Assembly: GCA_022842645.1 (NCBI GenBank)
Contig: JALHPE010000001.1
Coordinates: forward strand, 7,711-71,710
Source: Minisyncoccota bacterium
GTDB lineage: Bacteria > Patescibacteriota > Minisyncoccia > Phycocordibacterales > UBA2100
Direction: 5' to 3'
Length of the DNA: 64,000 bases
Each line of letters begins with the position of its first letter. Position 1 is the stretch's first letter. Under the pieces are notes generated by a model, which saw only the letters and a program-made list of their open reading frames with translations, did not search any database and had not been told where the DNA came from. Below are positions 8,847-49,744 of the stretch, one piece after another. The translations under genes were made by a program, and so were the position numbers.

Positions 8847-8865
8847 AGGAAGGATTGGGAAAACC

Positions 8866-9955: not shown

Positions 9956-9999
9956 GTGCCACCTTCCTTTCCTACTGCACTATAACACAGATGTACAAT

Positions 10000-34138: not shown

Positions 34139-34843
34139 CTAGACAACCGAAGCTTTAAATCGTCTGTCAGGCACCTTCGCTTCTTTCCACGATTCGTATA
34201 GGCCGGAAATTCTGGGATTCGATGTTCCAAAGACACGCAAATACGATTCCACTGCACGCGCACTACAAAGATAGATTCTGGTGTTTTGCGCGATTATGTG
34301 GGGTTCGATATCATTTTGACGAAAGACGTCTGCTACTTGTCGGATAAGTTCTCCTGATTCGCTAGTAAAGCAAAGTCCGATGTTTTGGTACTTGTTGCCA
34401 AGAGTCGTGTGTCGATGAATATACAAACAACCATCAGTATCCATTAAGCCACGAACGCATGTAGTTCTGTATGAAAAATTTGCAAGAACCCATGATGGAA
34501 TTCGAAGACCTTTTTCAAGTTTATTCCCACTCGACAATCCTTGGGAAATTAAAAAATCTACAACTGTCGTACTATTTAGGACAAGGACGAGCGCATTAGT
34601 ATGTTGCCGCTTGCGTGAGGTGGGACGAATACCGAAAAGATGATCACATAAATCAGAAATATACTCAGCATACTGTGCGTCTTTTTCGGCATTCATTGTG
34701 ATACTCAATTGCCAGGGATTTCCAATACCTCCATCCCCGAGCATAATGCCAAAAAACTCGGCAAGCTTAGATGACTTCTCAGGCAATCGTACAATTTTTC
34801 TGTGACTTTTTGCCGGGTAGCGTAATGTAGCTACTGAACTCAT
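34139..34843 (-). CDS. LAGLIDADG homing endonuclease (double-motif, free-standing)
   Basis: Two LAGLIDADG motifs, LAEFFGIMLGDGGI and VRGLMDTDGCLYI, about 100 aa apart; 234 aa. Confidence 0.8.
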   Translation of the reverse strand: MSSVATLRYPAKSHRKIVRLPEKSSKLAEFFGIMLGDGGIGNPWQLSITMNAEKDAQYAEYISDLCDHLFGIRPTSRKRQHTNALVLVLNSTTVVDFLISQGLSSGNKLEKGLRIPSWVLANFSYRTTCVRGLMDTDGCLYIHRHTTLGNKYQNIGLCFTSESGELIRQVADVFRQNDIEPHIIAQNTRIYLCSARAVESYLRVFGTSNPRISGLYESWKEAKVPDRRFKASVV

Positions 34844-35153: not shown

Positions 35154-35184
35154 TAACAGCCGCATACTCTGCGGCTGTTTTTAT
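35154..35184. terminator. Bidirectional rho-independent terminator
   Basis: acagccgcat-actc-tgcggctgt followed by TTTTAT. Confidence 0.65.
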
Positions 35185-36074
35185 ACCTGCATCTGCGACA
35201 GTGCACTGATACGCTCTTCTACAGGCGGATGTGTTGCAAAAAGCTTTGCAACAAACCGCCCCATGTCGTGCGCACCAAAAGGATTTGAAATGAAGAGATG
35301 CGCTGTTGCGTGATTGGCGCGCTCCATCGGCGCTTCGTGGGAGGAAATCTTTACGAGCGCAGAGGCGAGCGCATCTGGATAGCGCGTAAGGAGCGCGCCC
35401 GAGGCATCGGCGAGGAACTCTCGGCGGCGCGATATGGCGAGTTGAATGAGTTGCGCGGCAATCGGCGCAAGAAGAATGCCAATAAATCCAACAGCCATGA
35501 GAATGATATTTGCTCGCGCATCCCTGTCCCCCGCACCATAAAACGACGCGCGGAGAAAGAAGTCGGCGAGCATTGCAACAAAACCAGCAAGCACGACGGC
35601 AACCGTCATCACGAGAATGTCGCGGTTCCCGATGTGTGCGAGCTCGTGCGCTACCACGCCCTCAAGCTCGCTTCTGTCGAGTCGCTCTAAGAGACCTGTT
35701 GTCACCGCAACGACCGAGTGCTTCGGGTTTCTCCCTGTTGCAAAGGCGTTCGGTGCCGGATCATTCACGATGAAGACGCGCGGCTTGGGAAGCCCTGCAG
35801 TAATCGCAAGATTTTCGACAATGCGATGGAGTTCGCGGTAGGTGTTCGGATCCGCCTCGACTGCTCCCGTGGAAGACAGCGCCACTTTATCCGAAAACCA
35901 ATAGGCCGAGATATTCATGAAAAGCGAGAATGCGACCGCAACCCACAAAATCCCCGGCTGTTGTAAATACCACGCCGTCACATACCCAATAGCTACAACA
36001 AAGACGAGAAACCCGCCCATAAGGAGCCAGGTGCGACGGATGTTTGCTGCCTGATGCGTGTATAAACTAGCCAT
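35181..36074 (-). CDS. htpX: Zinc metalloprotease HtpX (M48 family)
   Basis: HEXXH seen as VVAHELAHIGNRD, four TM segments, 297 aa. Confidence 0.9.
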   Translation of the reverse strand: MASLYTHQAANIRRTWLLMGGFLVFVVAIGYVTAWYLQQPGILWVAVAFSLFMNISAYWFSDKVALSSTGAVEADPNTYRELHRIVENLAITAGLPKPRVFIVNDPAPNAFATGRNPKHSVVAVTTGLLERLDRSELEGVVAHELAHIGNRDILVMTVAVVLAGFVAMLADFFLRASFYGAGDRDARANIILMAVGFIGILLAPIAAQLIQLAISRRREFLADASGALLTRYPDALASALVKISSHEAPMERANHATAHLFISNPFGAHDMGRFVAKLFATHPPVEERISALSQMQV

Positions 36075-36115
36075 ATCTGTTAGCCTATCTTCAAAAAAAC
36101 CAAAATCAAGTGTAT

Positions 36116-36676
36116 TTAGAACTTCACTGGAACCGGCTGACGCGCGGCCTCCTCACTTTCCGCAAGCGCAAAGAATTCGCTCGGCTTGAAGCCAAATGCG
36201 GAACCGATGATGTTTGAGGGAACTTGTTCGAGCGCGTTTTTCAATTCCTGCACGACGGAATTATAAAAGCGGCGTGCGGCTTGGATTTTATTCTCCGTGT
36301 CGGAGAGCTCACGCTGAAGCTCGAGGAAGTTGGTATTTGCCTTCAAGTCTGGGTAGCTCTCTGCGACAGCAAAGAGTGATTTAAGAGCACCCGTAAGCAT
36401 GTTTTCCGCGGCGGCATGTTCTTCCACGGTGCCCGCATTCATCGCCTGTGTGCGCATCTCCGTCACTTTCGCGAGCGTCTCTTTTTCGTGCGTCGCATAA
36501 CCTTTCACCGTTTCAATAATGTTCGGGATGAGGTCGTAGCGGCGTTTGAGTTGCACATCAATATCAGCCCATGCTTCCTGCACACGATTAGTAAGCGCAA
36601 CGAGGCGGTTGTAGCCCAGAATCGCCCAGAGGACGACGGCTGCAACAACACCGAGAATTATGTATAGGATTGTCAT
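36116..36676 (-). CDS. lemA: LemA family protein
   Basis: N-terminal TM helix plus the conserved LemA region (YNRLVALTNRVQEAWADIDVQLKRRYDLIPNIIETVKGYATHEKETL). The htpX-lemA pairing is common. Confidence 0.85.
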   Translation of the reverse strand: MTILYIILGVVAAVVLWAILGYNRLVALTNRVQEAWADIDVQLKRRYDLIPNIIETVKGYATHEKETLAKVTEMRTQAMNAGTVEEHAAAENMLTGALKSLFAVAESYPDLKANTNFLELQRELSDTENKIQAARRFYNSVVQELKNALEQVPSNIIGSAFGFKPSEFFALAESEEAARQPVPVKF

Positions 36677-36701
36677 GTCTCCATTTTATCACACGACTAT
36701 C

Positions 36702-39700
36702 TTATCTCAACCCGCCCGGAGGAACCGCGCACCCGGCAGGATTTGGTTCGGCTTCGCAGAGGCATTGGATGAACGAATTGATTGGTTGTTCTGGCTCGCA
36801 GGTGCGCACGTCCTCTGGCGTAGGGTTTCCACTTTGCCCGCTGGACCCGCCCCCTCCTCCATTTCCACTGCCCGAACCGCTTCCGCCTGTGCCTACGGGC
36901 GTGCTCTGACTTCGCGCGATTTCTTCCGGCGTGAATATACGCTCCGGATCAGAATCGTCGCCACGCACACGCACCAGTGTCTCATGCAGAAGTTTATCGG
37001 TTGTATTCTTCGTGTTGCACACCAAGCCAAAACGAGTCGATTCGGTGATTGTTGGCGAACTGATAGATCCGTTCTGAGGGCCACGATGGAAGACTTTGAA
37101 GTCTGCGCTTATAACAGCGCACGTTGAGCTTCCGACATCGGTCCCGACACTCGACCACGAAAGCGTTGTTGTGGATCCAGAAGTTATGAACGAGGGATTA
37201 GCAACAATTGCACCCACGATAACCACCGGCTGCGGAGTGGATTGCGGCTCAGTCGGTGGTCGAGGAGGCTCTTCCTCCCCTCCTCCACCAAAATCAAAGA
37301 ACGCAAATAAGCCCTGGAGGAGTCCTTGCAAAACACTCATCCCACCGCGAGAGAATCCGCCCGAGCCACTGCCAGAAGAAGGAGGACTGCCGGGCACATC
37401 TCCAGAAGCAGAATCTTCAGGGGTGGAATCCCCCGGCGCACGACCATTTGTTTTTCCACTAGAACCAGAATCTGCATTGGCGCCAGGAGCACCACCTTGT
37501 CCGCCACGATCGCCGTTTGCACCCCCATCTGCAACAGATCCTACGCCGCCTCCGTCTCCTCCTGTTGCATCTTGTTGTGCCTTCTCTTCTTCTCCACTTT
37601 CACCTGGCGTAGCGGGTGCAACTCCTTGTGGCTCACCACTTTGCGATTCAGAGGGGGGCGCATCTCCAGGAGGCGTAGAAGTAAGAACACCACTATTCTG
37701 ATTTTGAATGGTCGTGTCGGGAGTAGATGGCGCTTCTGACGTAGCAGGAGTTTCTAAAGGCTCTTCTCCCCCAGGCATAATCGCATACACCCCCGCGCCA
37801 CCTAATAACATACTGACCGCCGACAAACATGAACGGAAGCCTGTACACATATCCCACGCTCTGCGTGCAACAGACGTTTGATTAGAGGGTGTATTTTGGG
37901 GCGATGCCGTGTTTACCCCTGCTCCCGAGCCGCGTGCTTGCGCCTCAGCCGTAGCCCCCCTTGCGTAATCATCAAGCGCACCTCGTGCAAGCGCGAGCAC
38001 TTGTGGATCATCTAGCTTGGCACCGTTTGCAAGTGCCCCATCAACGTCATCGAGCTTGCGTGCAGCATTGTCATACAACCCGGAAGCTGAAGTACCCTTC
38101 GTTATTACAGCCTTTTCGATCGCTACATCGCGAAGGAATTTAATCTCTGCAATCTGTGCTTCGCGCGCAGCTTGTGCGCGCGACCACTCATCAAGGCGTT
38201 TTATAAAATCATCGTTAATTGGAGCCACATCCCTACTAACTGGAGCTACAGCCTCAGGAACCACAGCGGCTGGAGGAGTGTCTGGAATGGGCGGTGGGGT
38301 TGGGGTGGTATCGCGCGGAATCGGAGGCGGCGTTTGCGGGAGCGGAGGTGGAACCGCATCAACAATCGGCGCACGTGGAAGATTTGCATTAGGCAGTGGT
38401 GACGGCGTTGTGGCTGGTACGTCTGGAAGTGCATCTCGAGCCAGGGCACCTGTGGGTAAAACGTCTCTTGTAAACCACCCACGTAACGATTGAGCTGCGT
38501 CTCCGATCGATGATCGAAGAGATGTCAAAGAGAAACCTTCCGAAACAGGCACAAGCGCATCCGCTCGATCCGGTACAAATGCACCAGCTTCTCCTAACGA
38601 ACCTTTTATTTCTTTTTCCTTTTGCCCCGGACGGAACGTGAATGGCGAAGGGGGAATGGACGGTGGAGTAGTCACTTGTGTATTTGGCGGTGGCGCAATG
38701 TCTGCAGCTACGACAGGCGCAGCAGATGGCGGGCGTGGCGTATCGCGGACAAGAGCAACAAAACTCGGTGACTCCGGAAGAGTTGGTGCAGGTGTGCCAG
38801 GCGAGCGTGGAGTTGTGGGCACAGGCACTGCCGGTGCCTCAGCCACAGCAGGAGTGTTGTCGGCAACAGTAATTACAGAAGGAGTTGGTATATCCTCCAC
38901 ATCAACTGCTCGAACAACTACATCAAAAGAACTATTCGCGATCACGGTTGGAGCAGAGATAGTATCAAAAATCGCGAGGGCAGTTACAACTTCTCCATGA
39001 GATAACGATTGGACGGTCGGGATATCTACAGCGGAGACTGTACGAACTTCCGGAATAGTAGAAACTTTTGCTAATAATGTATTTATTTCGATGACCGCAT
39101 TCTCAACTTTTGCTCCCTGAGAAGCGATTCTTGCTTTGAATTGAGCTTGGTTCGCGGCTTTGCTAAAAATATTACGTGCATAAAAGTTATCAACCTCCTG
39201 AGCCAAACTGCTCACATTTGTGCGCGCTATTTTCGCCTGCTCCAATAATCCTTCTCGAACATCACTGGGCACGAGAGGATTTTTGGCGACATTCTCTGCT
39301 GCGTCCGCTAATCTACCGACACCTGAACGCAAAGAGGGAGATGTGTTTTTTAATATCTCAAGGCCATCTAAACCTCCGATTTGCCTTGCTCGCAATAGTT
39401 CTTCCTGCATTACCTTTAAACGTCTAATACTCGGGGGTATAGCAACTTGTGCTTTTGCCAAATCTGCTTCTGCGGCAGCCACTAATTCTTTTCGAGGATT
39501 CGGTGCTATTGGCGGGTTTGTCTCAGAAACCAACATTGAAGTAGGAGAAGGGGGCGGGAGACTCTCTTCTGCTGCTCGGCGTGCACGTGCGGCAATCTCT
39601 GACAAATCGGCCAAAACAGTCGCTTGATCGGGGGAGGAACCGATGCCGGCGCGCCACACTTCGTCCATGGCAGCAAGTTGTTTACGCAAAATTTCCGTCT

Positions 39701-42700
39701 CCCCAAGTGGTAAACTTTCTCGACGAAGATCTGCAACGAGGTTCTCACGTAATACCTTCGTAGCTTGTTCTTCAGCACGACGTGCAATCTCATTCGGATC
39801 GCCTTGTATTCTACTGCGCCCGATCCCCTCTTGGTACTGCCGATTTGCAATCTCAATCGCACGCCGATTTGCTTCGACGGAGACATTTTGATTCGCAACC
39901 TCTCGAGTGGCTTCGGGACTTGGCGGTTGGTTTCCTCGAACAAAATTCCTCACGTTATTCATAAGACCTTCGATACGATTTCCTGCTGCAATGACACCCT
40001 CCGTCACACCGTATAGAATCGCATTCTGTATACCCGCACCCGAAGTCTCATTACCCACCGAATTCATAGCAGGGGTATCCCCGCTTTGAGGAACATTTGC
40101 AACAACTGTCGGGCCATCCAGAGCTTGAGGAGCATCCGCAACTACAGGTCTCGCAGCTGGTGTTGGTTCGTTTATCAATTTTGGTTCTGTGGATATCTGC
40201 GCCACATACGTCTCTGTCCTTGAAAAATCCGGACTTATAGGGCGTGTTGCGGCGATGATGGGATTATCTTGATTAACAATTGGCGTTGCCCTAACATCCA
40301 GCGGCGAAGGAACATCTGAATAGACTTGAGCAATTTGCGCTTCTACTGCTGCTTCCCTTCCTAACGCGGCCTTCATCAGACCTCCTAACCCACGATCGCC
40401 AATAGGGATTTCTGACACAACGCTCTGATCCGGCCTAAGGATAAAGGGTGATCTGCCACCATCAAGATCCTGCGCTATACGGGGAGCATCCGGAGAGACT
40501 GCGGATTCGGGCACCTGGGCAATCTGCGTACGTGGCAACTTCGCCACGGCATCGATATCTGCCTGAATAACAACATCTGCTGCCGTCATCTCTGCAATCG
40601 TAGGCTCGGTTCCCAGATCAGGGCGGCCTGCTATATTTTTTGCAAGGGCACTTTGGTATCGCTTGTATGCTTTTGTGTCTTCAAACCCAGCCTGTTTCAG
40701 TGCCGAAGCGATTGAGCGATTATATGCAAGAGAAGTTGCTACATCCGGATTCGGAGTAATTGGGTCAAGCGTGCGAGCACCGATTATCATTTTTGCCGCC
40801 TCACGTTCGCGCTGGGCAAGTTGTATTTTCGCTAGATCTTCGCTGGCTCTCGCTGGCAGACCTCCCGCCGGTGCACCCAAAGACGCTTCACGGAAGTTTG
40901 CAAACCCCGCGAGCACGTCCGCCTCACCAGTCTGGTGATTTACAATACGGATATTCGGATTCCATGCGCGAGCGGCATCAGCCATAATGAGACTGCCCAG
41001 TACCTGCCCACCATCAGGCAAATCCCCTTTTTGCATGACGGTCTCCACACCGATACCCCGGTGACCAAACTGGCGAGCATGGGCGTAGTATTCATCAAAA
41101 GGAGTGAGTATGCCTATATCCACCACTTTCTCACCGGCAATATTTGTCTGGGTTCTTCCTAGGTACGCTGACACATACACGCCTGAGCCTCTTCCGTTGT
41201 TTGCATTTGACTCAAGGATTTTGAACATATCGTATGTATTTGCACGTGTCTCGTGAAATACCAATAAGTCTCTCTGTGCAGGAGTACGGACCCTACCAAC
41301 GTTCTCACGATTAGCCCAAACGTCGTTCATATACCACAATCGAACTGTGTATGTCTCTCCATTAAATGGAATTTTTTTAACCGCAACTGAAACATCTACC
41401 TCACCTTTTCGCGCCGTCCTGACTTTCAGTGTTTGCATGGTTGCATCCGGCAATATAGGCAAACTTGATGGATTAATAGTTGCCCCCGTGCTGCACATTT
41501 TTGCGTCAGTGCAGACAGCGGTTGCAACCGCATCGTTACTCGCAGGGACAGGTGCTGTTGTATTTGTGGGCTCTGAAGTTGGGTTACTGGGAGGAACTTC
41601 GCCGTCTCCTGAGCGCACAACCGGGTTCGCGACCTCCGGAGGAGTATTTACTGCTCCCTGATTCGCATTCGGCACCTCAGCAATTGCAGTAGGCCTTGAT
41701 GTTTGAGCGTACCACTGAGCCGCTGGTTCTGAGCCGAATACTTTTGCAAGACCGTCACGTAACGCCTCATTTGTAATGGGATCCTCGATTCCATATCTTG
41801 CCAGTGCTGGATATTCTGCTTTAAAGATTCCCTTCGTTAGAGCCGCCCGAGCAGCAAGATCGTTGCGCGCAATGGGTGTAGTAAGTGTAAGTCCCCCTGT
41901 TTCTGCATGGCGCAAACGAGACAAATCATCAAAGGAACCGTTGATCACATCAGTACCAACCCACAACTTAACCACATCGTTATAAGTTTTTGCATTTACG
42001 TACGCTGGTTGGTAATCCAATTTTGCTGAAACCATAGCCGCAGCGTCTGCGTGAGAGGCAAAACATGCGTATGGAGCGTTGCAAGATATGATATTTATTT
42101 TCTCGGGCACAACCTTTGTTAAGTCAGGCTTGCCATTGACAATTGGGACATCGTTGAAAAGCTCTGGTTTGATTTTCTGTACTTCGCGCACACCTTCCCA
42201 TTTCATTCCCCCGAGATTGTTTAATTCTTTAGCAGCGGCAACATGCCTCGAACGAACGTCGACATTTCTCCATTGAGTTTGATTTCCTAAAAAACTTACC
42301 CTACTGGTATCACTACCATCGCGACCAAAAGAAAGAGTGACGGGGCTTTTCTCCCCCGTAACCACACTAGCTGACACAGAGTCTCCTGCTTGCGCAAGAC
42401 CAATCGAAGAACCTTCCGGCATAAAAAGAGAAAATGGAGGGAGCGCGGCGGGATTCGGAGTGGCTGCAAGTCCAACGATGACAGCCGCTTGCTTTAATAC
42501 ACGACCAACTGGCGTCTCGCCTATTCGAGACAAGACTGTAGGGGCGGATGGTATCAAACGATCGACTCCTGCTCCGCCTACAAGAGAATCTATCCCACTT
42601 CCCCCACTTGGAACATTTGATGGGGCATTTGAAGCGCGCATAACTGGGGGAGGTTGGATATTGCGAAGCGGAATACTCTCCACGTTATTGATTCCAGACA

Positions 42701-45700
42701 CACTTGGCACCTCGACAGCACGCCCCCTTGAAGGGATTGCCGCAGGAATCGCATCGGACACGGGCGTAATCGGCGGCTCATATAATACAAGTGCTCTACT
42801 TGGCGGAAGCGGTGCGTCTGGGCGAATACCGCTGAGTGCAGCTCTTACTTCTTGCGCATCAGGTCGCAGATCAAGCTCAGGATGGTATACACGATCCGCA
42901 AAACGTTGCGCAGCAACTGTCTCAAACTCTGAAGCGGTACCCGACCATCTTCCAGCAGTAATTTCATGGTTGAGTCCGCTAGTGACGGAGCGACCCATGC
43001 GATCCGCAAGAACCGCAGCATCAGTACTTAAACCTGCAGTTGGAGGACGAAATACCCCTGAAGCAATGGCGTAATCGTCGCGCGCAACGTCGAGAGCGAA
43101 ATTACCCAAACCCCTTCCTATGGCTCCCGCTTGTTTAAAAGTGACAATACCAAGAGGTCCGACGTATTGTGTCGAATCAACAATAAAAGCTCCAAGTGCA
43201 GAACGGGGGCTGCGCGCGAGTCCAGCGATTTGCACATCCGTGACCGGAGTAACTCCAAATATAGACGAGACGTTAGAAGCCCCATCCCACAGACTTTTCA
43301 TGACACCTCCACCAAAAAGTTTCGGGTAATTCCCCTCACGCCACGCATTTTGTACAACTTCGCCCCAATAATCTGAACGCTCCTGCAGCCACTGAGGAGG
43401 AGCTTCAGTACCTGTAATGGTATTAATTCTTTGTTGCAGAGAAGCATCGGTGACTTTGCCCTGAAGGATTTGATCAATCCGAGCGTTTGTGAGGGTCAGA
43501 TTACCCTGCGGATCGTACCATCCAGGACCTTCTGTGCCGGCGATGCCTTCCAACGTGAATGGAGTAAGCGCTGATTCAAGCATGACTCTTCCCAAACTCA
43601 TGTCCCCACGCTGATACGCATCAATCATTTCAGAGAAACTCAAATTGCTCTGGAGAGCATCTTGTTTCTGCTGAATGAGTTGCGGTAGTATTTCTCGCAT
43701 TGCAAGTTCCTCGCGCGTCATGGTCGCCGGGTCACGCTTCATAAACGCTACATAATCCGACGCACGCGGGTCGTTCGTTAGAAATCCTAGAGTATTACGG
43801 CTCGTATTAATATCGCCCTCAACGTCTGAAAGTTGTGCTCCTAGCGAAGCAATCTCCTGACGTCTATCGTAAAGAAGTCCTGTATCTCTAGGAGAAATCG
43901 CGACATCATTCAGGGCATCTATTTCAGAGCGCAACTGAAGTGCGCGCAGATTTGCTTTATCAAGCGCGCTCTGAGCGCGATACCGCTCGTCTAAGACACT
44001 TTGCACGGGATCGCTGATGCGCTCCTGATATTCCCGATTAACTTCCGCAAAACGAGCACGAGCTGCTTCAAGGTTATTTACAGCCTCAAATCGCTCTTTC
44101 TGCAACGTATCAAGTGGCGCTGCAACAGAGCTAAAGTTCGCCAGGGCTTCTTGTTGTACCCGTGCTGACGCATTTGCTTCCGCAATCGCAACGCTCCGCT
44201 CTTGGAATAATGCACCCCTCTTTGCATCAACCGATGAAAACGTCTTCGTCAAACGATCATTATCGGTATTGAATGCTTCGCGAAGTCCGTTATGTTCATT
44301 CGCTAGACTTTGATACCGTTGAAAATCTGCTTGGCTTAATTTTTTTCCATTTGCCTCCGCTTTTGCGTCCAGTGCGGAGAGCTCTGTGCGTATGGCATCC
44401 ATCCGCGCGATTCGCGCCTCTTGTTCGGGATACGTACGAACCCGCGCGATCACATCCTCCGTTTTGCTGGTCATTGCCCCCACTGTGTTTGTCTCGACTG
44501 TTGTTTTAAACGTGCGTTCCGCCATGACGCATCCGTTTGTTTGCGCACACAATGACTCTTCTGCGGCATTCTGCGCTGCAATCGCTGTATTTTTCTCCTG
44601 AATCGCGGCCTGACTACGAGCTTCTGCCTGCGCGGCATCTCGCACAACCGCCTCGCGCGCCGCCCTCATTCTTAAAACCTCCTCTTCACTCCGCCCCCCT
44701 GAAATAGATCCGTTTTGCGAAAGATTTAATTGCGTATTCTCACTATTTTTTAGAACGTCTTGCAAACGCCTCTCCGCCTGAACGACATCTTGCGCCGCTT
44801 CGATGCGATCGCGCTCGATGCGTAAGAACGTTTTGTCTGTTTCGCCAGTTTGAGTGCCTTTTTCTCCTGCAAATGTATCAATACCAACTCGAGATCCTTC
44901 GGACACCCCGGTGCTATACCCTGGCAAACCCTGTTTTCTAAATGCATCGTCGCTAGGTCCGCTTGGGGAGTTCTTAAGACCCGCCTGTTCATTAGCCGCG
45001 ATTGTGGGGTTGATCTGGTTTAGGGGATCCTGCACACCACTCGGTCCCCCGGCGTTCTGCGCAAGATACCGAAGACTCTCCTGTCGACTCGCTTCTCTCT
45101 CTACTCCGTCCAGCGCCGCAATCGCTTGGGCACGATCAGATAACTGAAGCCCCAGCGAGTCACCAAGTTTTGTAAACCATGCACGATTGTCTGGTTGTTC
45201 TTCCACCGCCGCCTTGAGCGCAAGCGCCTCGCCTGAGGATATGAGTTCCCCTCGCGCCTGTTTTTCGAGTACATATTCAGCAACTCCCTTCTGAAATTGC
45301 TCCGGCGTCACACCTTCGAATTGTTTTATAACATCTTCTATTGAAGCAAGGGAATCTAGGTTCGATTCTTCTGGGCGACTTCCCATGCTGTCGAGAATTG
45401 CTTTGCTTGTTACCAACTCCCCACTATTCACATCAACTATTTCCGCTTCTCCGAATGGGCTCTCTGTAAATTCGGTTGTGTTTAATGTGGGGTCAACGGA
45501 ACCGGTGGCTAATGTTTTCAACCCGGCCCACGCCTCTGCCGCAGTTGCTTTCGCGGTTTGCCACATTCCATTCAAGCCATCCGCAAGAGTTGAAACTGTT
45601 GACGGCCGAGATGTCGGAAGAGCAAAAGGATCAGGAGATCCTGTATTGCTGAAAGTTCCTGTCGGGCGAACAAGATCACCCAACCCCTGATAAAACGAAC

Positions 45701-46565
45701 TTCCACCGTTTGCAGCGGAGACTGAGTCTACGTACTGCTGGTATGGTGATGGACTGAAAGTCCCTGAATTATTAGCAGTGGGTAATTCAGATAAGTCGAA
45801 AGTATTTCTGCCACTCCCTTGCAGATATTCGTATAATTGCGAAGGATTGATACGCCCCTGATCGATGAGTTTTTGATAATTTGCGACGTCCCCCAAACTA
45901 CCAGTGGTATTTATTGGGGGTCGTACCGTGCCTGCCTGTACTGCATTATTAAAATTAATGTTTTGGTCTATAAGCGCCTGTTCGTAACTTGAGAGATTAG
46001 GATTTAGTGCCCTATTCATACTCTCATTCAACTGCATTTGACTTTCGTTGGGACCGAATAACTGATCCCAATAATCACCTAATTTCCCTCCTAGGGACTG
46101 CGAATCTGCAGAAACACCACTTGGAGTTCCGGGCTGACCTTGCACAATATTTTTTCCCCCAGACATCGCTTCTATTGCTTTTTGCTGCAAATCTTGGCAG
46201 GTTGTAGCTCCTGAAGGAACGGTGCAGGACTTTTCTTCGACGCCTCCACGAATACCTTGCTTCCAACATGTTTGCACACCACCGCTTAAGCCAGTAAGGT
46301 TTGCTTTGTCACACTCGATGGCCTTGGCAGCGCTTGCATCTTTATTTGTGTTAGAAGAAACAGAATTTTCTTTTTCTCCAGCTGAGACATTGTTTTGTTG
46401 TTGCGCGGGACACTTTTCAGGACACACATTTACAATAGCTCCATTCAACGCGCAATTAATCTTGCGAGCATTACCAGCACATTGTTCCTGCGCGAAAGAA
46501 GGACTAGGGATTAACAAAAGGACAGAGGAACAAATAGCAAAAAACGTGACGTGTGCACGATTCAT
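36702..46565 (-). CDS. Giant secreted/cell-surface protein (3287 aa)
   Basis: Signal peptide, Cys-rich N-terminal region, long coiled-coil stretches, Pro- and Gly-rich linkers, and a C-terminal module shared with the 869-aa protein (GGM..FF amphipathic segment, Ig-like TTTLSWSSVG domain, terminal VRTCEPEQPINSFIQCLCEAEPNPAGC). The many antisense ORFs within it are low-complexity artefacts. Confidence 0.8.
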   Translation of the reverse strand: MNRAHVTFFAICSSVLLLIPSPSFAQEQCAGNARKINCALNGAIVNVCPEKCPAQQQNNVSAGEKENSVSSNTNKDASAAKAIECDKANLTGLSGGVQTCWKQGIRGGVEEKSCTVPSGATTCQDLQQKAIEAMSGGKNIVQGQPGTPSGVSADSQSLGGKLGDYWDQLFGPNESQMQLNESMNRALNPNLSSYEQALIDQNINFNNAVQAGTVRPPINTTGSLGDVANYQKLIDQGRINPSQLYEYLQGSGRNTFDLSELPTANNSGTFSPSPYQQYVDSVSAANGGSSFYQGLGDLVRPTGTFSNTGSPDPFALPTSRPSTVSTLADGLNGMWQTAKATAAEAWAGLKTLATGSVDPTLNTTEFTESPFGEAEIVDVNSGELVTSKAILDSMGSRPEESNLDSLASIEDVIKQFEGVTPEQFQKGVAEYVLEKQARGELISSGEALALKAAVEEQPDNRAWFTKLGDSLGLQLSDRAQAIAALDGVEREASRQESLRYLAQNAGGPSGVQDPLNQINPTIAANEQAGLKNSPSGPSDDAFRKQGLPGYSTGVSEGSRVGIDTFAGEKGTQTGETDKTFLRIERDRIEAAQDVVQAERRLQDVLKNSENTQLNLSQNGSISGGRSEEEVLRMRAAREAVVRDAAQAEARSQAAIQEKNTAIAAQNAAEESLCAQTNGCVMAERTFKTTVETNTVGAMTSKTEDVIARVRTYPEQEARIARMDAIRTELSALDAKAEANGKKLSQADFQRYQSLANEHNGLREAFNTDNDRLTKTFSSVDAKRGALFQERSVAIAEANASARVQQEALANFSSVAAPLDTLQKERFEAVNNLEAARARFAEVNREYQERISDPVQSVLDERYRAQSALDKANLRALQLRSEIDALNDVAISPRDTGLLYDRRQEIASLGAQLSDVEGDINTSRNTLGFLTNDPRASDYVAFMKRDPATMTREELAMREILPQLIQQKQDALQSNLSFSEMIDAYQRGDMSLGRVMLESALTPFTLEGIAGTEGPGWYDPQGNLTLTNARIDQILQGKVTDASLQQRINTITGTEAPPQWLQERSDYWGEVVQNAWREGNYPKLFGGGVMKSLWDGASNVSSIFGVTPVTDVQIAGLARSPRSALGAFIVDSTQYVGPLGIVTFKQAGAIGRGLGNFALDVARDDYAIASGVFRPPTAGLSTDAAVLADRMGRSVTSGLNHEITAGRWSGTASEFETVAAQRFADRVYHPELDLRPDAQEVRAALSGIRPDAPLPPSRALVLYEPPITPVSDAIPAAIPSRGRAVEVPSVSGINNVESIPLRNIQPPPVMRASNAPSNVPSGGSGIDSLVGGAGVDRLIPSAPTVLSRIGETPVGRVLKQAAVIVGLAATPNPAALPPFSLFMPEGSSIGLAQAGDSVSASVVTGEKSPVTLSFGRDGSDTSRVSFLGNQTQWRNVDVRSRHVAAAKELNNLGGMKWEGVREVQKIKPELFNDVPIVNGKPDLTKVVPEKINIISCNAPYACFASHADAAAMVSAKLDYQPAYVNAKTYNDVVKLWVGTDVINGSFDDLSRLRHAETGGLTLTTPIARNDLAARAALTKGIFKAEYPALARYGIEDPITNEALRDGLAKVFGSEPAAQWYAQTSRPTAIAEVPNANQGAVNTPPEVANPVVRSGDGEVPPSNPTSEPTNTTAPVPASNDAVATAVCTDAKMCSTGATINPSSLPILPDATMQTLKVRTARKGEVDVSVAVKKIPFNGETYTVRLWYMNDVWANRENVGRVRTPAQRDLLVFHETRANTYDMFKILESNANNGRGSGVYVSAYLGRTQTNIAGEKVVDIGILTPFDEYYAHARQFGHRGIGVETVMQKGDLPDGGQVLGSLIMADAARAWNPNIRIVNHQTGEADVLAGFANFREASLGAPAGGLPARASEDLAKIQLAQREREAAKMIIGARTLDPITPNPDVATSLAYNRSIASALKQAGFEDTKAYKRYQSALAKNIAGRPDLGTEPTIAEMTAADVVIQADIDAVAKLPRTQIAQVPESAVSPDAPRIAQDLDGGRSPFILRPDQSVVSEIPIGDRGLGGLMKAALGREAAVEAQIAQVYSDVPSPLDVRATPIVNQDNPIIAATRPISPDFSRTETYVAQISTEPKLINEPTPAARPVVADAPQALDGPTVVANVPQSGDTPAMNSVGNETSGAGIQNAILYGVTEGVIAAGNRIEGLMNNVRNFVRGNQPPSPEATREVANQNVSVEANRRAIEIANRQYQEGIGRSRIQGDPNEIARRAEEQATKVLRENLVADLRRESLPLGETEILRKQLAAMDEVWRAGIGSSPDQATVLADLSEIAARARRAAEESLPPPSPTSMLVSETNPPIAPNPRKELVAAAEADLAKAQVAIPPSIRRLKVMQEELLRARQIGGLDGLEILKNTSPSLRSGVGRLADAAENVAKNPLVPSDVREGLLEQAKIARTNVSSLAQEVDNFYARNIFSKAANQAQFKARIASQGAKVENAVIEINTLLAKVSTIPEVRTVSAVDIPTVQSLSHGEVVTALAIFDTISAPTVIANSSFDVVVRAVDVEDIPTPSVITVADNTPAVAEAPAVPVPTTPRSPGTPAPTLPESPSFVALVRDTPRPPSAAPVVAADIAPPPNTQVTTPPSIPPSPFTFRPGQKEKEIKGSLGEAGAFVPDRADALVPVSEGFSLTSLRSSIGDAAQSLRGWFTRDVLPTGALARDALPDVPATTPSPLPNANLPRAPIVDAVPPPLPQTPPPIPRDTTPTPPPIPDTPPAAVVPEAVAPVSRDVAPINDDFIKRLDEWSRAQAAREAQIAEIKFLRDVAIEKAVITKGTSASGLYDNAARKLDDVDGALANGAKLDDPQVLALARGALDDYARGATAEAQARGSGAGVNTASPQNTPSNQTSVARRAWDMCTGFRSCLSAVSMLLGGAGVYAIMPGGEEPLETPATSEAPSTPDTTIQNQNSGVLTSTPPGDAPPSESQSGEPQGVAPATPGESGEEEKAQQDATGGDGGGVGSVADGGANGDRGGQGGAPGANADSGSSGKTNGRAPGDSTPEDSASGDVPGSPPSSGSGSGGFSRGGMSVLQGLLQGLFAFFDFGGGGEEEPPRPPTEPQSTPQPVVIVGAIVANPSFITSGSTTTLSWSSVGTDVGSSTCAVISADFKVFHRGPQNGSISSPTITESTRFGLVCNTKNTTDKLLHETLVRVRGDDSDPERIFTPEEIARSQSTPVGTGGSGSGSGNGGGGGSSGQSGNPTPEDVRTCEPEQPINSFIQCLCEAEPNPAGCAVPPGGLR

Positions 46566-46636
46566 TACGAGTAATTATACGTATATAAAAGTAACAAAAA
46601 TGGGATTTCCCCATTCATACAAAAAAGTGACCCGAA

Positions 46637-47044
46637 TTACTCCGGGTCACTTGATGACGTGGTCGTGGCTCGCGCCTCTTGGATGCGCATGTCCGCCAAA
46701 AGCCCTCTTACGAGATAGCTCGGCATCATATCGCTCAAGTCGCGTACGTATGCGACCGTGTATTTTCCTTCCGGAAACACACCGGCAACATGGCGCACAT
46801 CAGGCACACATTGCCGAAGCCCAATAACGAGCTCTTCTTTGGGGGTTTGTACTCCCGAGAAGTACTTGGCCAGTATTTCAGCCGAAAACCGATCTGAGCA
46901 GAAATAGCCTTCCACTTGACCAGACTCGACTGTGCCAACTACCGGAATATCGGGATCTTTGAGATCAACCGTGACCTCTTCCCATCCGAGAGCTGCGCTT
47001 CCGAAGATGCCAACGAACACGAACGTCAAGACTGTACTTTTCAT
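46637..47044 (-). CDS. Small secreted protein (135 aa) between the two large surface-protein genes
   Basis: Signal peptide MKSTVLTFVFVGIFGSAALG; two Cys. Confidence 0.45.
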   Translation of the reverse strand: MKSTVLTFVFVGIFGSAALGWEEVTVDLKDPDIPVVGTVESGQVEGYFCSDRFSAEILAKYFSGVQTPKEELVIGLRQCVPDVRHVAGVFPEGKYTVAYVRDLSDMMPSYLVRGLLADMRIQEARATTTSSSDPE

Positions 47045-47134: not shown

Positions 47135-49744
47135 CTACATCCCCCTTGGAGAAACAGAACATCCCGCGGGGTTGGGTTCGGCCTCACAAAGACATGCAAT
47201 GAATGCGTCGATCGATTGTTCGGGATCACAGGTGCGGACGTCTATGGGAGCTACTGATGATTCGCCGCTGGCACTTGTTCCACCTGTTCCAGAAGAAGAG
47301 ACTGCGCTCGAAGCGCGGCCGGAATTAGAGAAGAGGGGCGGCGTGGTGGAAGCACTGCCCTCCACGCGCACCAACACTTCGTTAATGAATTTGTCTTCCC
47401 CACGCTCGATGTCACAAATAACCGCGAAACGTGTTGTCTCGGAAATGAGTGGTGATTGCACTTTTCCATTTGCGCCGCGCGCAATCACGCGCGAGAGCGC
47501 ATCGACAACTGCGCAAGACTGCGCACCCACACTCGACCACGAAAGCTGCGTGGTTTTGCCCGAAGCGATTTCAATCGGATTTGCAGTAATCGTCGCAACA
47601 GGTGTCGTACGCGGCTCAACTTTCGCAGGAGATGGATTTGCTGAATTCGCACCCGGAGGAGTGAAGAATGAAGCCAGGGCTTTTATAAGCGTGCCCATTA
47701 TTTGCATTCCTCCCTGTATAAATCCTGAGTTTGATTGCTGTGCACTCGCCCGAGGCTCTGGTGGAGTTTCTGATGCGGGTGGTGTCTCACTTTGCGCCGG
47801 AGGCTTCGGGGGGGAATTCGCCTTCGCCTCCTCAGTTTCTGGCGCAGAAGGCAGCGAGTCTTGAGGTTCCGACACAGAAGGAGGTGGTGTTGGCACTGGA
47901 GGTGGTGGTGTGGGTGCGGTTGGAATTGAAGGAGGTGGTGGAGGAACCTCGGCAACTTGGGTTGGAATCTCTACCCGAGACGCGCCAGGAAAGTTGAAAC
48001 GCTCCTGAATATTCCCAAAAACTTCTCTCACGTTCTGTGCGATTGCTGAAAGGCCTGAAAGCAGCCCTTCTCCGGGTGTGACTACCTCAGGAACTTCTTG
48101 TGGTGGTGTCTCTGATTCAAATCCAAGTGCCGAGCGTATTCGTTCTGCAACTAACCCACTGAGCGTGCCCGGGCCTGTGCCGAAGACGCTAATTGCATTT
48201 GCTTCGTCAAACTCAAATTCCGGCTCCGCGGCTTCAAGTTCACCTGCGTTTGCGCGGAGTCTCACGAGTCCTTCCGCCTCGCTGAGTACGCGCTGCTCAG
48301 AGCGCGCATCTTGCAGCGCGCGATACTCGTTTGATTTTATGAAATCGGGAAGCCAAGGAGTCCTGTCAATCCATTCTCGAAACGGGAGCGCGCGTGTTTC
48401 GTATGCAAGATCGAGCGCATACTCTGCTCGCGCAACATCCTCCTCAAGAATACGTCGCGCTGTCGCAACTTCCGGATCATCTGCACCGATGCGCCCACCA
48501 ACAAGTCCACTGAACGCCCCCTCAACTGCAATCGTACGTGCACGCTCGAAGCTTTTCGCAACAGGAAGTCCCTGCTCAAGACCTTCTGCAAAACGATTTG
48601 GAAGAACAGTACCTTCATCCCACCACAAAGGATACTGGGGGAGTTTCGGTGATACATCAGAAACAGTGCCTGTATCTATTTCTGCGGTTACGATATCAAC
48701 TGAAGGAAGTATCTCTTCTTCGGGAGGTGACTTAGGTGGCGTAAAAGGGTTTACATCATATGGCGGACGAATGGGGTTGCCTATGTCGTTGGGCGGATTA
48801 TCTGTCACCGGCTGCGCAGGACCGCCGCTCAGAGACGGAGCTTTTGGTGGAGGCGTTTGTGGATTGTTACTCGCAACAACCGGCCCGGGACGAGGAACGC
48901 TAGTATTCCCTCCGTTTCCTCCGGAAAATCCTGGCGCAGAGTTTATGCCAAAGAGGTTACCAAAAAAATCTATGACGCTCGGGAGAAGTCCTGAAAATAC
49001 ACTCCCCACCACGGGAGAAACAATAGTGCTAGAGATACCAGAAGCTCCAAATGTCGTGAGATGTTCAAATGGATTTCCACCACTAAATACCCCACCTTCG
49101 CCAAAGGTGCTTGCGGGGCGCTTGGGTTCGAGCACTGACGGTTTTCCCGTGGGAACTTGAGGCTTGGTTTGTGTCGGTGACGGAGCTTGTGGAGTCACCA
49201 CCTCAACTTCTGGTAGCACTACACTACCATCCGGATTGACCGCGGCACCACCGGTTGGATCAACAGATCCGCCCGGGAGAGGTTCCCCACTTGGAGGTTC
49301 AAACGCATCGAGCGGATCACTTCCAGAAGGCAATGTGCCACCCGAACCACCCGATGAACCTGAACTTCCCGAGCTACCCGCGCCACCACTCGGAGGATTG
49401 GTGGTGCCGCTGTCGGGCACGTCAGGAGCCCCGGTCAGAGGCTTTCCGTCGCAGCCTATTTTTGCCAAACACTTCGACGCGTCACATTTCGAAATTACCA
49501 CCGGGTTTGCTATCCCATCACATTCAAGTCCAAGTGCTTCGTTGTCGCCGACTGGTGTGCGCATGCATTCTGCGCCTTGCGGCAATGCATCTGGATGATT
49601 AGGCTCGGTAACACCCAGACCACAACGAATATCAGCATACTGAATCGAGCCCTTCAATTGAGCGTGCGTAATGAACGGCGCCGTTACAGAAGAAGCAACC
49701 CCGAACACTATGGTAAACACTAAACGAACGGTCATCCCTACCAT
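47135..49744 (-). CDS. Secreted Pro/Gly-rich surface protein (869 aa) sharing the C-terminal Ig-like plus CLCEAEPNPAGC module with the giant protein
   Basis: Signal peptide, Cys-rich N-terminal region, PPPP linkers; the C-terminal roughly 230 aa align to the giant protein C-terminus. Confidence 0.7.
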   Translation of the reverse strand: MVGMTVRLVFTIVFGVASSVTAPFITHAQLKGSIQYADIRCGLGVTEPNHPDALPQGAECMRTPVGDNEALGLECDGIANPVVISKCDASKCLAKIGCDGKPLTGAPDVPDSGTTNPPSGGAGSSGSSGSSGGSGGTLPSGSDPLDAFEPPSGEPLPGGSVDPTGGAAVNPDGSVVLPEVEVVTPQAPSPTQTKPQVPTGKPSVLEPKRPASTFGEGGVFSGGNPFEHLTTFGASGISSTIVSPVVGSVFSGLLPSVIDFFGNLFGINSAPGFSGGNGGNTSVPRPGPVVASNNPQTPPPKAPSLSGGPAQPVTDNPPNDIGNPIRPPYDVNPFTPPKSPPEEEILPSVDIVTAEIDTGTVSDVSPKLPQYPLWWDEGTVLPNRFAEGLEQGLPVAKSFERARTIAVEGAFSGLVGGRIGADDPEVATARRILEEDVARAEYALDLAYETRALPFREWIDRTPWLPDFIKSNEYRALQDARSEQRVLSEAEGLVRLRANAGELEAAEPEFEFDEANAISVFGTGPGTLSGLVAERIRSALGFESETPPQEVPEVVTPGEGLLSGLSAIAQNVREVFGNIQERFNFPGASRVEIPTQVAEVPPPPPSIPTAPTPPPPVPTPPPSVSEPQDSLPSAPETEEAKANSPPKPPAQSETPPASETPPEPRASAQQSNSGFIQGGMQIMGTLIKALASFFTPPGANSANPSPAKVEPRTTPVATITANPIEIASGKTTQLSWSSVGAQSCAVVDALSRVIARGANGKVQSPLISETTRFAVICDIERGEDKFINEVLVRVEGSASTTPPLFSNSGRASSAVSSSGTGGTSASGESSVAPIDVRTCDPEQSIDAFIACLCEAEPNPAGCSVSPRGM

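What the first reader, a model, noticed from the sequence alone, without database searches (positions are those of the whole stretch)
36702..37400. Novel shared C-terminal module with a terminal 4-Cys motif (VRTCxPEQxIxxFIxCLCEAEPNPAGC) on two paralogous secreted proteins
The last roughly 230 residues of the 3287-aa and 869-aa proteins align in four parts. There is an amphipathic GGMxx..LxxLxxFF segment, a Pro-rich linker, an Ig-like domain (I.ANP..I.SG.TT.LSWSSVG...C.V...TRF...C...E.LVRV.G), and a Ser/Gly linker followed by an extreme C-terminal C-x11-C-x-C-x8-C motif with invariant CLCEAEPNPAGC. The nucleotide sequences (36700-36850 versus 47140-47290) are also visibly similar, roughly 70%. 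A conserved C-terminal domain on otherwise unrelated giant surface proteins is the hallmark of a sorting or anchoring signal, as with LPXTG, PEP-CTERM or the T9SS CTD. This motif does not correspond to any of those.
Basis: seen in the sequence. Interest (0 to 1): 0.75.

Follow-up and report, generated by a model that had tools for sequence, protein, structure and literature searches.

The report
Shared cysteine-stapled C-terminal module, Saccharibacteria
Two secreted proteins of an ultrasmall (Saccharibacteria-like) bacterium, one of them a 3287-residue giant, end in the same previously undescribed module, whose last 35 residues are almost invariant while the rest of the giant changes beyond recognition between related genomes. 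It is probably a docking or retention handle rather than a classical cleaved sorting signal.

Summary
ORF A (36702-46565, 3287 aa) and ORF B (47135-49744, 869 aa), both on the minus strand, share only their last ~217 residues (BLASTP 1e-42 to 3e-52). The order is amphipathic helix, Pro-rich linker, Ig-like sandwich (AF2 pLDDT >90), Gly/Ser linker, then C-x11-C-x-C-x8-C.

Pfam, NCBIfam and PDB sequence searches match nothing. An exhaustive HMM search finds 257 cluster representatives. Of the 157 proteins inspected, 70 end in C-x-P-x(7-10)-C-[LVI], always with 2 or 4 Cys. About 15 more end in helix plus Ig-like domain without a tail.

The closest genomes are Saccharibacteria/Patescibacteria MAGs. 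Each carries two such genes, usually in the order GroES-GroEL-B-(small ORF)-A-LemA-M48.

The tail is 81-83% identical within and between paralogs, against 48-68% for the Ig-like domain. The giants' bodies are mostly unalignable.

No hydrophobic segment or basic cluster follows the motif, so it is not an LPXTG/PEP-CTERM-type signal. No dedicated enzyme was found. LemA-M48 adjacency looks like inherited gene order.

Best reading (about 0.4): an extracytoplasmic, disulfide-stapled docking/retention module recognised by one conserved partner. The mechanism is inferred, not shown.

The parts
36702..46565 (-). ORF A: 3287-aa secreted giant protein that carries the module
   Evidence: ORF list and translation. 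N-terminal signal-peptide-like segment, residues 6-24, KD 1.81. No Pfam, NCBIfam or PDB match.
46491..46565 (-). A: predicted Sec signal peptide (MNRAHVTFFAICSSVLLLIPSPSFA|QE)
   Evidence: Hydropathy peak. The cleavage site was read from the sequence and is an inference; no SignalP was available.
37776..37859 (-). A: optional upstream element, W-x3-C-x5-C followed by an ~18-residue uncharged hydrophobic segment (residues 2903-2930), then an acidic Gly/Ser/Pro-rich spacer
   Evidence: KD 1.64, hydrophobic moment 0.06. The same element occurs in several other giants but not in all, and not in B.
37290..37346 (-). A module part 1: Gly-flanked amphipathic helix GGMSVLQGLLQGLFAFFDF
   Evidence: AF2 helix at module residues 8-20 with low pLDDT of 51-57. 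Hydrophobic moment 0.35, mean hydrophobicity 0.56. Conserved in distant family members.
37227..37289 (-). A module part 2: Gly/Glu/Pro-rich linker
   Evidence: Alignment. pLDDT below 50. 25-40% identity among homologues.
36960..37226 (-). A module part 3: Ig-like beta-sandwich with a conserved Cys pair (A 3149 and 3183)
36819..36959 (-). A module part 4: short post-Ig helix and Gly/Ser low-complexity tether
   Evidence: AF2 helix at 144-151, then pLDDT below 50. 18-40% identity among homologues.
36705..36818 (-). A module part 5: terminal knob PEDVRTCEPEQPINSFIQCLCEAEPNPAGCAVPPGGLR (C-x11-C-x-C-x8-C)
   Evidence: Cys positions. 81-83% identity within and between paralogs. AF2 helix at 193-203 carrying the C-x-C, pLDDT 60-75.
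47135..49744 (-). ORF B: 869-aa secreted protein that carries the paralogous module. The public gene call starts at 49735 (866 aa).
   Evidence: P0022 is 100% identical. Found on 14 public contigs with the same neighbours.
47138..47248 (-). B: terminal knob PIDVRTCDPEQSIDAFIACLCEAEPNPAGCSVSPRGM
47357..47599 (-). B: Ig-like domain
   Evidence: Alignment to A.
47663..47713 (-). B: amphipathic helix GGMQIMGTLIKALASFF
46637..47044 (-). orf135: small predicted secreted protein between B and A. Same gene in the same position in L011 (53% identity); other genomes have an unrelated small ORF with a hydrophobic N-terminus, or inserted toxin-antitoxin-like ORFs.
   Evidence: No Pfam or NCBIfam match.
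46625..46652 (-). Terminator-like hairpin (12-bp stem plus T run) at the end of orf135. It suggests that B-orf135 and A are separate transcription units.
   Evidence: Consensus scan only.
35181..36676 (-). LemA (36116-36676) and M48 peptidase (35181-36074) immediately downstream of A. This is conserved synteny, and a functional link is not shown.
   Evidence: Pfam. Synteny across loci. Promoter-like site at 36683-36710. Adjacency is broken in L001 and L019.

Best explanation
The shared C-terminus is an extracytoplasmic docking/retention module. After Sec export, both proteins keep a constant C-terminal handle made of a Gly-flanked amphipathic helix, a disulfide-containing Ig-like domain, and a small terminal knob on a flexible Gly/Ser tether. 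In the knob a short helix carrying C-x-C is probably stapled on both sides by two disulfides: C1-C2 across 11 residues, and C3-C4.

The knob, possibly together with the helix and Ig-like domain, is recognised non-covalently by one conserved component of the producer's own envelope. That holds the fast-evolving, probably host-facing bodies of the giant and of its ~900-aa companion at the cell surface.

Shown here: the anatomy, the even Cys counts, the conservation gradient, the family distribution and the synteny. Inferred: export, the disulfide pairing, the existence of a partner, and retention as the purpose.
For: 1. Secretion. Both proteins, and nearly all full-length relatives, begin with a signal-peptide-like hydrophobic segment. 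Cys occur in pairs throughout A, including C-x5-C loops at 673/679, 1495/1501, 1685/1691 and 2907/2913.

2. Disulfides rather than a metal site. All 70 tails found have 4 Cys (48 tails) or 2 Cys (22 tails), never 1 or 3. The C-x(9-12)-C pair is always present, and the C-x-C...C extension is gained or lost as a pair. The two Ig-domain Cys are invariant or nearly invariant.

3. A recognition element. Mean pairwise identity of the tail is 83% among A-types, 81% among B-types and 82% between A- and B-types. The Ig-like domain gives 68/57/48%, and the linkers 18-40%. The tails of the A and B proteins of the same genome are almost identical in four genomes, although the modules as a whole cluster by paralog type, so the duplication is old. 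Third codon positions are not conserved.

4. A constant handle on variable bodies. With the last 350 residues removed, the giant bodies cover each other by 0-21% in most pairs. In the closest genome (GroEL 94% identical) the giant matches A essentially only in its last ~330 residues.

5. Layout. Low-complexity Gly/Ser/Pro/acidic spacers lie before the helix and before the knob, as expected for a tether.

6. The helix plus Ig-like unit at the C-terminus recurs in about 85 of the 157 proteins inspected (70 with a tail, about 15 without), so the module is a family-defining unit.
Against: - No partner has been identified, and no experiment or structure bears on binding.
- Only two carriers per genome were seen, so a retention system would serve very few clients.
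- The AF2 confidence is modest for the knob (pLDDT 60-75) and low for the helix (51-57). Model coordinates could not be inspected, so the disulfide pairing is inferred from Cys co-occurrence only.
- The conserved N-terminal ~500 residues of some giants could equally be the anchoring end.
- The hydrophobic segment at A 2912-2930 is unexplained. If it is a real stop-transfer helix, the module would lie in the cytoplasm, which contradicts this model.
- A related lineage at the same locus (L008, LemA 77% identical) has a very different tail, WCDPNMPIDAFTQCLCNLEPNTCRPWKQ. This requires a co-changed partner or a replacement.
Confidence: 0.4

Rival explanations
1. It is a true C-terminal sorting signal of a new, non-tripartite type. 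A dedicated enzyme recognises the knob, cleaves it off, and/or ligates the protein covalently to wall or lipid. Candidates are the downstream M48 peptidase with LemA, or the PrsW-type protease at 16293-16982.
For: - The near-invariant short motif lies at the extreme C-terminus behind a flexible linker and is identical in both paralogs.
- LemA and M48 lie directly downstream of a module-bearing gene in the window and in L002-L004, L008-L010, L014, L016 and L018.
- Cys-containing sorting signals processed by membrane proteases are known (Haft 2023).
Against: - There is no transmembrane helix and no basic cluster after the motif.
- NCBIfam sorting-signal models and Pfam give no hit.
- Only two substrates per genome were seen.
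- LemA and M48 are 74-92% identical housekeeping-like genes embedded in a wider conserved gene order, GroES/EL ... DUF1761, DUF192.
- The CAYSUJ01 giant has moved to another contig and is followed by L25, patatin and FtsH. The one distant locus, L019, has a pilin-like neighbour instead.
- LemA has its own promoter-like site.
- The family members without a tail still keep the helix and Ig-like domain.
Confidence: 0.13
2. It is an assembly or multimerisation module. The tails and Ig-like domains of A, B or several copies bind each other, non-covalently or by disulfide exchange, to build a fibre or a heteromeric surface complex. This would resemble the C-terminal cystine-knot dimerisation of mucins and von Willebrand factor.
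For: - A and B are encoded side by side in a conserved locus and carry the same tail.
- These are giant secreted proteins with long low-complexity spacers and a Cys-rich C-terminus.
- Ig-like domains often mediate homophilic contacts. This rests on general knowledge.
Against: - The Cys number is always even, with a conserved local spacing, which fits closed intramolecular pairs.
- In other tail lineages (type 2, WCDPN...; the 2-Cys types) only giants and short, apparently partial products were seen, with no ~900-aa companion class.
- Nothing here tests interaction.
Confidence: 0.17
3. The module is the distal, ligand- or host-binding end of the proteins, for example binding a host-cell glycan or wall polymer, and the anchor is elsewhere, such as the N-terminal Cys-rich region or the hydrophobic element at A 2903-2930.
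For: - In several giant adhesins the C-terminal region carries the ligand-binding domains. This rests on general knowledge.
- The N-terminal ~500 residues are conserved among a subset of giants.
- A hydrophobic element upstream of the module exists in many giants.
Against: - Host-facing parts of episymbiont surface proteins are expected to diverge, yet the tail is the most conserved part and the bodies the least.
- The hydrophobic element is absent from B and from several giants.
Confidence: 0.15
4. There is no special function. It is an ordinary duplicated structural Ig-like domain plus a fortuitously conserved terminus, inherited from a local duplication.
For: - The Ig-like unit also occurs as a tandem repeat in many unrelated proteins.
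- The two carriers are neighbours.
Against: - Tail identity of 81-83% is maintained across orthologs and paralogs while third codon positions have randomised.
- The module is always strictly C-terminal and always in the same part order.
- It is retained on unalignable bodies.
Confidence: 0.07

Closest known systems
LPXTG / PEP-CTERM / PGF-CTERM / MYXO-CTERM-type C-terminal sorting signals (sortase, exosortase, archaeosortase, myxosortase substrates)
   Same: A short, strongly conserved motif at the C-terminus of Sec-exported surface proteins with unrelated bodies, preceded by low-complexity spacer regions. MYXO-, JDVT-, Synerg- and CGP-CTERM also have invariant Cys (Haft 2023).
   Different: Those signals are tripartite: motif, transmembrane helix, Arg/Lys cluster. 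Here nothing hydrophobic or basic follows the motif. The unit is ~200 residues and includes a folded Ig-like domain. There are two carriers per genome instead of many. No cognate enzyme was found.
Type IX secretion C-terminal domain (Por_Secre_tail, CTD)
   Same: An Ig-like beta-sandwich at the C-terminus of large secreted proteins with diverse bodies. The tail-less relatives end exactly with the sandwich.
Dockerin-cohesin docking of cellulosomal proteins
   Same: A small, conserved C-terminal module on otherwise unrelated secreted proteins that plugs non-covalently into a partner on the cell surface. This is the working model proposed here.
   Different: A dockerin is a duplicated Ca-binding loop-helix motif without Cys. 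There is no Pfam Dockerin hit, and no cohesin-like partner has been identified.
C-terminal cystine-knot (CTCK) domain of mucins and von Willebrand factor
   Same: Giant secreted proteins with long low-complexity stretches that end in a Cys-rich C-terminal domain.
   Different: CTCK has about 10 Cys in ~90 residues and forms intermolecular disulfides. Here there are 2 or 4 Cys in ~30 residues with an even count, which suggests closed pairs. No sequence match.
Generic bacterial Ig-like repeat domains (Big/PKD/FN3-like)
   Same: The central domain is an Ig-like sandwich and is homologous to units that occur as tandem repeats in many proteins.
   Different: No named Pfam family matches it, either here or in the tandem-repeat relatives. 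In this family it is fixed at the C-terminus between a conserved helix and the knob.

Membership tests
LPXTG cell-wall sorting signal (sortase substrates) | LPXTG-like pentapeptide near the C-terminus | tested here: not met
   The last 60 residues of A and B were read directly and contain no LPxTG-like motif. NCBIfam and Pfam give no hit.
LPXTG / PEP-CTERM / MYXO-CTERM-type tripartite sorting signals | Hydrophobic transmembrane segment after the signature motif | tested here: not met
   Only 3-19 residues follow the last Cys. The maximum 15-residue KD in the last 45 residues has a median of 0.53 and a maximum of 1.5 over 70 tails. The definition is from Haft 2023.
LPXTG / PEP-CTERM / MYXO-CTERM-type tripartite sorting signals | Arg/Lys-rich cluster at the extreme C-terminus | tested here: not met
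   The termini are ...CAVPPGGLR and ...CSVSPRGM, with at most one basic residue.
LPXTG / PEP-CTERM / MYXO-CTERM-type tripartite sorting signals | Cognate sorting enzyme (sortase, exosortase, CPBP-type protease) co-occurring in the genome | tested here: inconclusive
   None is in the 64-kb window or next to the related loci. Whole genomes could not be profiled.
Type IX secretion CTD | Match to the Por_Secre_tail / TIGR04183-type models | tested here: not met
   No Pfam or NCBIfam hit for A, B, or any of the 12 aligned modules at E<=1.
Type IX secretion CTD | Host organism has an outer membrane and T9SS machinery | not tested
   The nearest genomes are Saccharibacteria/Patescibacteria MAGs. That these lack T9SS rests on general knowledge only.
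Dockerin | Duplicated Ca-binding loop-helix repeat (Pfam Dockerin_1) | tested here: not met
   No Pfam hit. The sequence has no such repeat.
Ig-like beta-sandwich fold | Seven-stranded two-sheet sandwich | tested here: met
Zinc-binding Cys4 knuckle/ribbon | Four metal-ligand Cys, usually as two CxxC-type pairs, all required | tested here: not met
   The spacing is C-x11-C-x-C-x8(6)-C. 22 of 70 tails keep only two Cys, and Cys are lost in pairs. Metal binding itself cannot be tested here.
C-terminal cystine knot (CTCK) | About 10 conserved Cys in ~90 residues with a knot topology | tested here: not met
   Only 2 or 4 Cys in ~30 residues. No Pfam hit.

The most novel reading that the evidence does not exclude
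The disulfide-stapled terminal knob is a new class of C-terminal surface-attachment signal used by ultrasmall episymbiotic bacteria (Saccharibacteria/Patescibacteria). It has no transmembrane segment, and it comes in lineage-specific versions: type 1 CLCEAEPNPxGC..PPGG, type 2 CLCxLEPxGCxPW, and 2-Cys forms. A dedicated and still unknown receptor or enzyme would read it and fix hypervariable giant host-interaction proteins to the cell. That would give a handle to find, pull down and localise the proteins that mediate the epibiotic lifestyle.
Probability: 0.15. Interest if true: 0.8.

Novelty: new variant of a known kind. Interest (0 to 1): 0.55.

Why it matters
Patescibacteria make up a large share of uncultivated bacterial diversity and live attached to other microbes. 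How their giant surface proteins are displayed is not known. This module gives three things:
- A sequence signature that picks those proteins out of metagenomes even though their bodies are unalignable.
- A defined ~35-residue peptide that should have a conserved binding partner or processing enzyme, which could be found by phylogenetic profiling, pull-down or complex prediction.
- A natural contrast between type-1, type-2 and 2-Cys tails for testing co-variation with candidate partners.

If it proves to be only a structural terminus, it is still an unannotated domain family worth a Pfam/NCBIfam entry.

Tried and rejected
- Word-index homology searches. Three were run, with A1, A3 and A4. They returned only short products of 353 aa or less, several of them fragments, and never the giants. 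The second and third gave 1 and 2 hits and were effectively wasted. The exhaustive HMM search gave the real picture.
- Many hits of ~200 aa start at the Met inside the helix. This looked like a possible stand-alone gene, but it is a gene-calling effect on short contigs: in L004 a 41-aa partial call abuts the 'start'.
- A possible peptidoglycan-amidase-like region in A. By eye, about 1695-1945 shows HE...Y...HA...GIGxE...H, and it is shared with P0042 and P0087. This is not supported. Pfam on nine segments of A gave nothing there. A PDB profile search gave nothing. The AF2 model has pLDDT 38 and is unusable, so no fold search was run on it.
- LemA/M48 as a cognate processing system was considered and judged unsupported. 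The adjacency is part of a wider synteny and is broken in L001 and L019.
- orf135 as a universal partner or chaperone. A homologue was detected only in L011; other genomes have unrelated small ORFs or toxin-antitoxin-like inserts at that position.
- Phage origin. There are no relatives in IMG/VR.
- Literature. No description of this module was found. The cultivated Southlakia epibionticum has a different gene order around GroEL and LemA.
- The A 2912-2930 segment as a stop-transfer anchor. Considered unlikely because basic residues precede it and acidic residues follow it, and because it is absent from B and several giants. It has not been excluded.
Full report
**1. What is at the coordinates**

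The minus strand carries two long ORFs: A (36702..46565, 3287 aa) and B (47135..49744, 869 aa).
- Their C-terminal parts align with 40% identity over 262 columns, E = 3e-52.
- Full-length A against B gives a single HSP, A 3070-3286 against B 674-869, 43.8% identity, E = 1e-42.
- tblastn finds no third copy in the 64 kb.

- A Gly-flanked amphipathic helix, GGMSVLQGLLQGLFAFFDF in A and GGMQIMGTLIKALASFF in B. The hydrophobic moment is 0.35-0.41.
- A Pro-rich linker.
- An Ig-like domain.
- A Gly/Ser linker followed by the motif C-x11-C-x-C-x8-C, with Cys at A 3256/3268/3270/3279 and B 839/851/853/862.

Read in codon register, the tails are 72% identical at the nucleotide level. Only 12 of 32 third positions match, so the constraint is on the protein and there has been no recent gene conversion.

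**2. Structure**

AlphaFold2 was run on a 12-sequence alignment.
- Residues 48-131 of the module form a confident seven-stranded sandwich (pLDDT 90-97).
- The N-terminal helix (8-20) has low confidence.
- Both linkers are disordered.
- A helix at 193-203 carries the C-x-C, with pLDDT 60-75.

**3. Not a described family**

- Pfam gives no hit at E<=0.01 and NCBIfam none at E<=1 for A, B or orf135.
- The isolated A module had one chance-level NCBIfam match: CbiG, E 0.18, 11.9 bits against a cut-off of 261.
- None of the 12 aligned modules matches any Pfam family consistently at E<=1.
- Nine separate segments of A give nothing credible.
- PDB sequence searches are empty.
- Tandem-repeat proteins that contain the same Ig-like unit also lack a named Pfam family for it.
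- No paper found describes it.

**4. Distribution**

The exhaustive profile search over 1.84 billion cluster representatives found 257 proteins at E<=1e-3, 68 at <=1e-10 and 29 at <=1e-30. I inspected the 157 proteins in hand.
- 70 end in C-x-P-x(7-10)-C-[LVI] within the last 60 residues. Of these, 48 have four Cys (spacing 11/1/8 or 11/1/6) and 22 have two Cys (spacing 9-12). None has an odd number.
- About 15 more end exactly with helix, linker and Ig-like domain and have no tail.
- The rest are tandem Ig-like repeat proteins that match only the sandwich.

Carriers fall into two size classes: giants of about 1.8-7 kaa and proteins of about 800-1000 aa. Nearly all full-length ones start with a signal-peptide-like hydrophobic segment.

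The species-genome scan hit an uncultured Candidatus Saccharibacteria MAG (two loci, L001 and L003) and a Patescibacteria MAG (L002). IMG/VR has no relative. The window's own B protein is on 14 public contigs with identical neighbours.

**5. Genomic context**

In the window the order is GroES, GroEL, B, orf135, A, LemA, M48 peptidase, a LAGLIDADG-like ORF, DUF1761, DUF192, then ribonucleotide reductase.
- The same order recurs in metagenome contigs L009-L016. On the 162-kb contig Ga0155055_116 both B and A are present.
- In other genomes the B-A interval holds inserted ORFs that look like toxin-antitoxin modules, judged by eye from their translations only.
- orf135 is a small protein with a signal-peptide-like N-terminus. 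It has a detectable homologue only in L011.
- A terminator-like hairpin follows orf135, and a promoter-like site precedes LemA. Both are consensus matches only.

LemA and M48 are 74-92% identical across these loci, so they behave like housekeeping genes within conserved synteny.
- In MAG CAYSUJ01 the giant sits on another contig, followed by L25, patatin and FtsH, while B abuts LemA.
- In the single distant (2-Cys) locus available, the neighbour is a pilin-like N_methyl gene.
- The cultivated Southlakia epibionticum has a different order around GroEL and LemA.
- No sortase, CPBP protease or Dsb gene lies in the window.

I therefore see no evidence for a dedicated processing enzyme, though whole genomes could not be profiled.

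**6. Conservation pattern**

This is the most informative result. The comparison uses nine A-type and five B-type modules.

| Segment | A vs A | B vs B | A vs B |
|---|---|---|---|
| Tail | 83% | 81% | 82% |
| Ig-like domain | 68% | 57% | 48% |
| Helix | 54% | 38% | 37% |
| Linkers | 18-40% across the three comparisons | | |

- In four genomes the A and B tails are almost the same, for example CDPDQPIDSFIRCLCEVEPNPAGCTIPPGGLPI against CDPEQPIDSFIRCLCEAEPNPAGCTIPPGGI. Whole modules still cluster by paralog type, so the duplication is old and there is no concerted evolution.
- The bodies behave in the opposite way. After removing the last 350 residues, the giants cover each other by 0-21% in most pairs.
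- The giant of the closest genome (GroEL 94% identical) matches A only in the last ~330 residues plus one 59-residue patch.
- A lineage with LemA 77% identical (L008) carries at the same locus a module only 28-30% identical, with a different 'type-2' tail, WCDPNMPIDAFTQCLCNLEPNTCRPWKQ.

**7. Interpretation**

- Signal peptides, paired Cys throughout, a conserved Cys pair in the sandwich, and tails that only ever have 2 or 4 Cys all point to an extracytoplasmic, disulfide-bonded module rather than a Cys4 metal site. This is inference.
- A short terminal peptide held to one consensus in both paralogs, sitting on a flexible tether behind hypervariable bodies, is what a recognition element for a single conserved partner looks like.
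- It lacks the motif, transmembrane helix and basic-cluster layout that defines LPXTG, PEP-CTERM and MYXO-CTERM-type signals (Haft 2023). It also marks only two proteins per genome.
- I therefore favour a non-covalent docking/retention handle (confidence about 0.4).
- The rivals are a cleaved or ligated sorting signal (0.13), an assembly or multimerisation module (0.17), a distal ligand-binding end (0.15), and no special function (0.07).

**8. Unexplained**

- Many giants, including A, have W-x3-C-x5-C followed by an uncharged ~15-18-residue hydrophobic stretch about 150 residues upstream of the helix (A 2903-2930). Basic residues precede it and acidic residues follow it. It is absent from B and from several giants. 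If it spans the membrane, the topology proposed above fails.
- B contains a second FF-type motif, SGLLPSVIDFFGNLFG, at 251-266.
- A region of A (about 1695-1945) is shared with two distant giants and looked amidase-like by eye. It could not be confirmed.

**9. Verdict**

This is a real, unannotated, family-defining C-terminal module of Saccharibacteria/Patescibacteria-type secreted proteins. The specific equation with sortase-type sorting signals is not supported. I rate it a new variant of a known kind, namely C-terminal surface-display or docking modules, of moderate interest. The mechanism is open and directly testable.

Noticed in passing
window 36702-46565 compared with L001, L010/L011, L012, P0011-P0032: The giant proteins that share the type-1 module have mosaic, mostly unalignable bodies (0-21% mutual coverage in most pairs), even between genomes whose GroEL is 94% identical. 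Some share only the N-terminal ~500 residues. This looks like a hypervariable surface-protein locus.
   Followed up: partly
window 37776-37859 (A residues 2903-2930): W-x3-C-x5-C followed by an uncharged hydrophobic ~18-mer, with basic residues before it and acidic residues after it. It recurs about 300-385 residues from the C-terminus in many giants, but not in all and not in B. It could be a membrane-interacting loop or a transmembrane segment; this is unresolved.
   Followed up: partly
A residues 673/679, 1495/1501, 1685/1691, 2907/2913 (window about 44529-44549, 42063-42083, 41493-41513, 37827-37847): Apart from the N-terminal cluster and the module, every Cys in the giant occurs as a C-x5-C pair. 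These may be small disulfide loops punctuating the protein.
   Followed up: no
window about 40731-41483 (A residues 1695-1945): This segment is shared at 28-32% identity with two distant giants (P0042, P0087). It has invariant HE, Y, HA, IG-x-E and H positions that resemble an amidase-type zinc hydrolase by eye. Pfam, a PDB profile search and AF2 (pLDDT 38) gave no support.
   Followed up: yes
L008 1280-1903 (metagenome contig Ga0207952_1001707): At the same locus, upstream of a LemA 77% identical to the window's, the giant ends in a different 'type-2' tail (WCDPNMPIDAFTQCLCNLEPNTCRPWKQ), and its module is only 28-30% identical. This is either very fast divergence or replacement of the handle.
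   Followed up: partly
L011 10434-12300; L012 10600-14900; L015 5976-10000: In other genomes the interval between the B-type and A-type genes holds short ORFs whose translations look like toxin-antitoxin genes (nucleotidyltransferase/HEPN, RelE/ParE-like, PIN- and MazF-like). This was judged by eye and not scanned. The spot seems to attract small mobile modules.
   Followed up: no
window 46625-46652 and 36683-36710 (minus strand): A strong terminator-like hairpin (12-bp stem plus T run) lies right after orf135, and a promoter-like site with an extended -10 overlaps the stop codon of A, upstream of LemA. If real, B-orf135, A, and LemA-M48 are three separate transcription units.
   Followed up: no
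window about 4000-10000: A low-GC stretch (0.43-0.45 against about 0.51) holds a serine-recombinase-like ORF (4128-5870) and a KAP-family P-loop NTPase (7270-8598). It is probably a small integrated element.
   Followed up: no
window 34139-34843 (minus strand); L018 3086-3343: A free-standing LAGLIDADG-like ORF lies between the M48 peptidase and DUF1761. A 54%-identical copy is at the same position in another metagenome contig.
   Followed up: no
window 48947-48994 (B residues 251-266): B contains a second hydrophobic FF-type motif, SGLLPSVIDFFGNLFG, which resembles the module's amphipathic helix. It lies inside a moderately hydrophobic stretch (KD 1.71) that is conserved in some B-type orthologs.
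   Followed up: no
L019 1121-2018: In the only locus recovered for the 2-Cys tail group, the module gene is convergent with a DUF5673-like ORF and a type IV pilin-like (N_methyl) gene.
   Followed up: no
L012 7418-10498 and 14966-20392: In MAG JBBTXY01 the B-type and A-type proteins also share an N-terminal motif just after the signal peptide (Q-x-C-A-D-W-W-K-K). Some lineages therefore share both ends.
   Followed up: no
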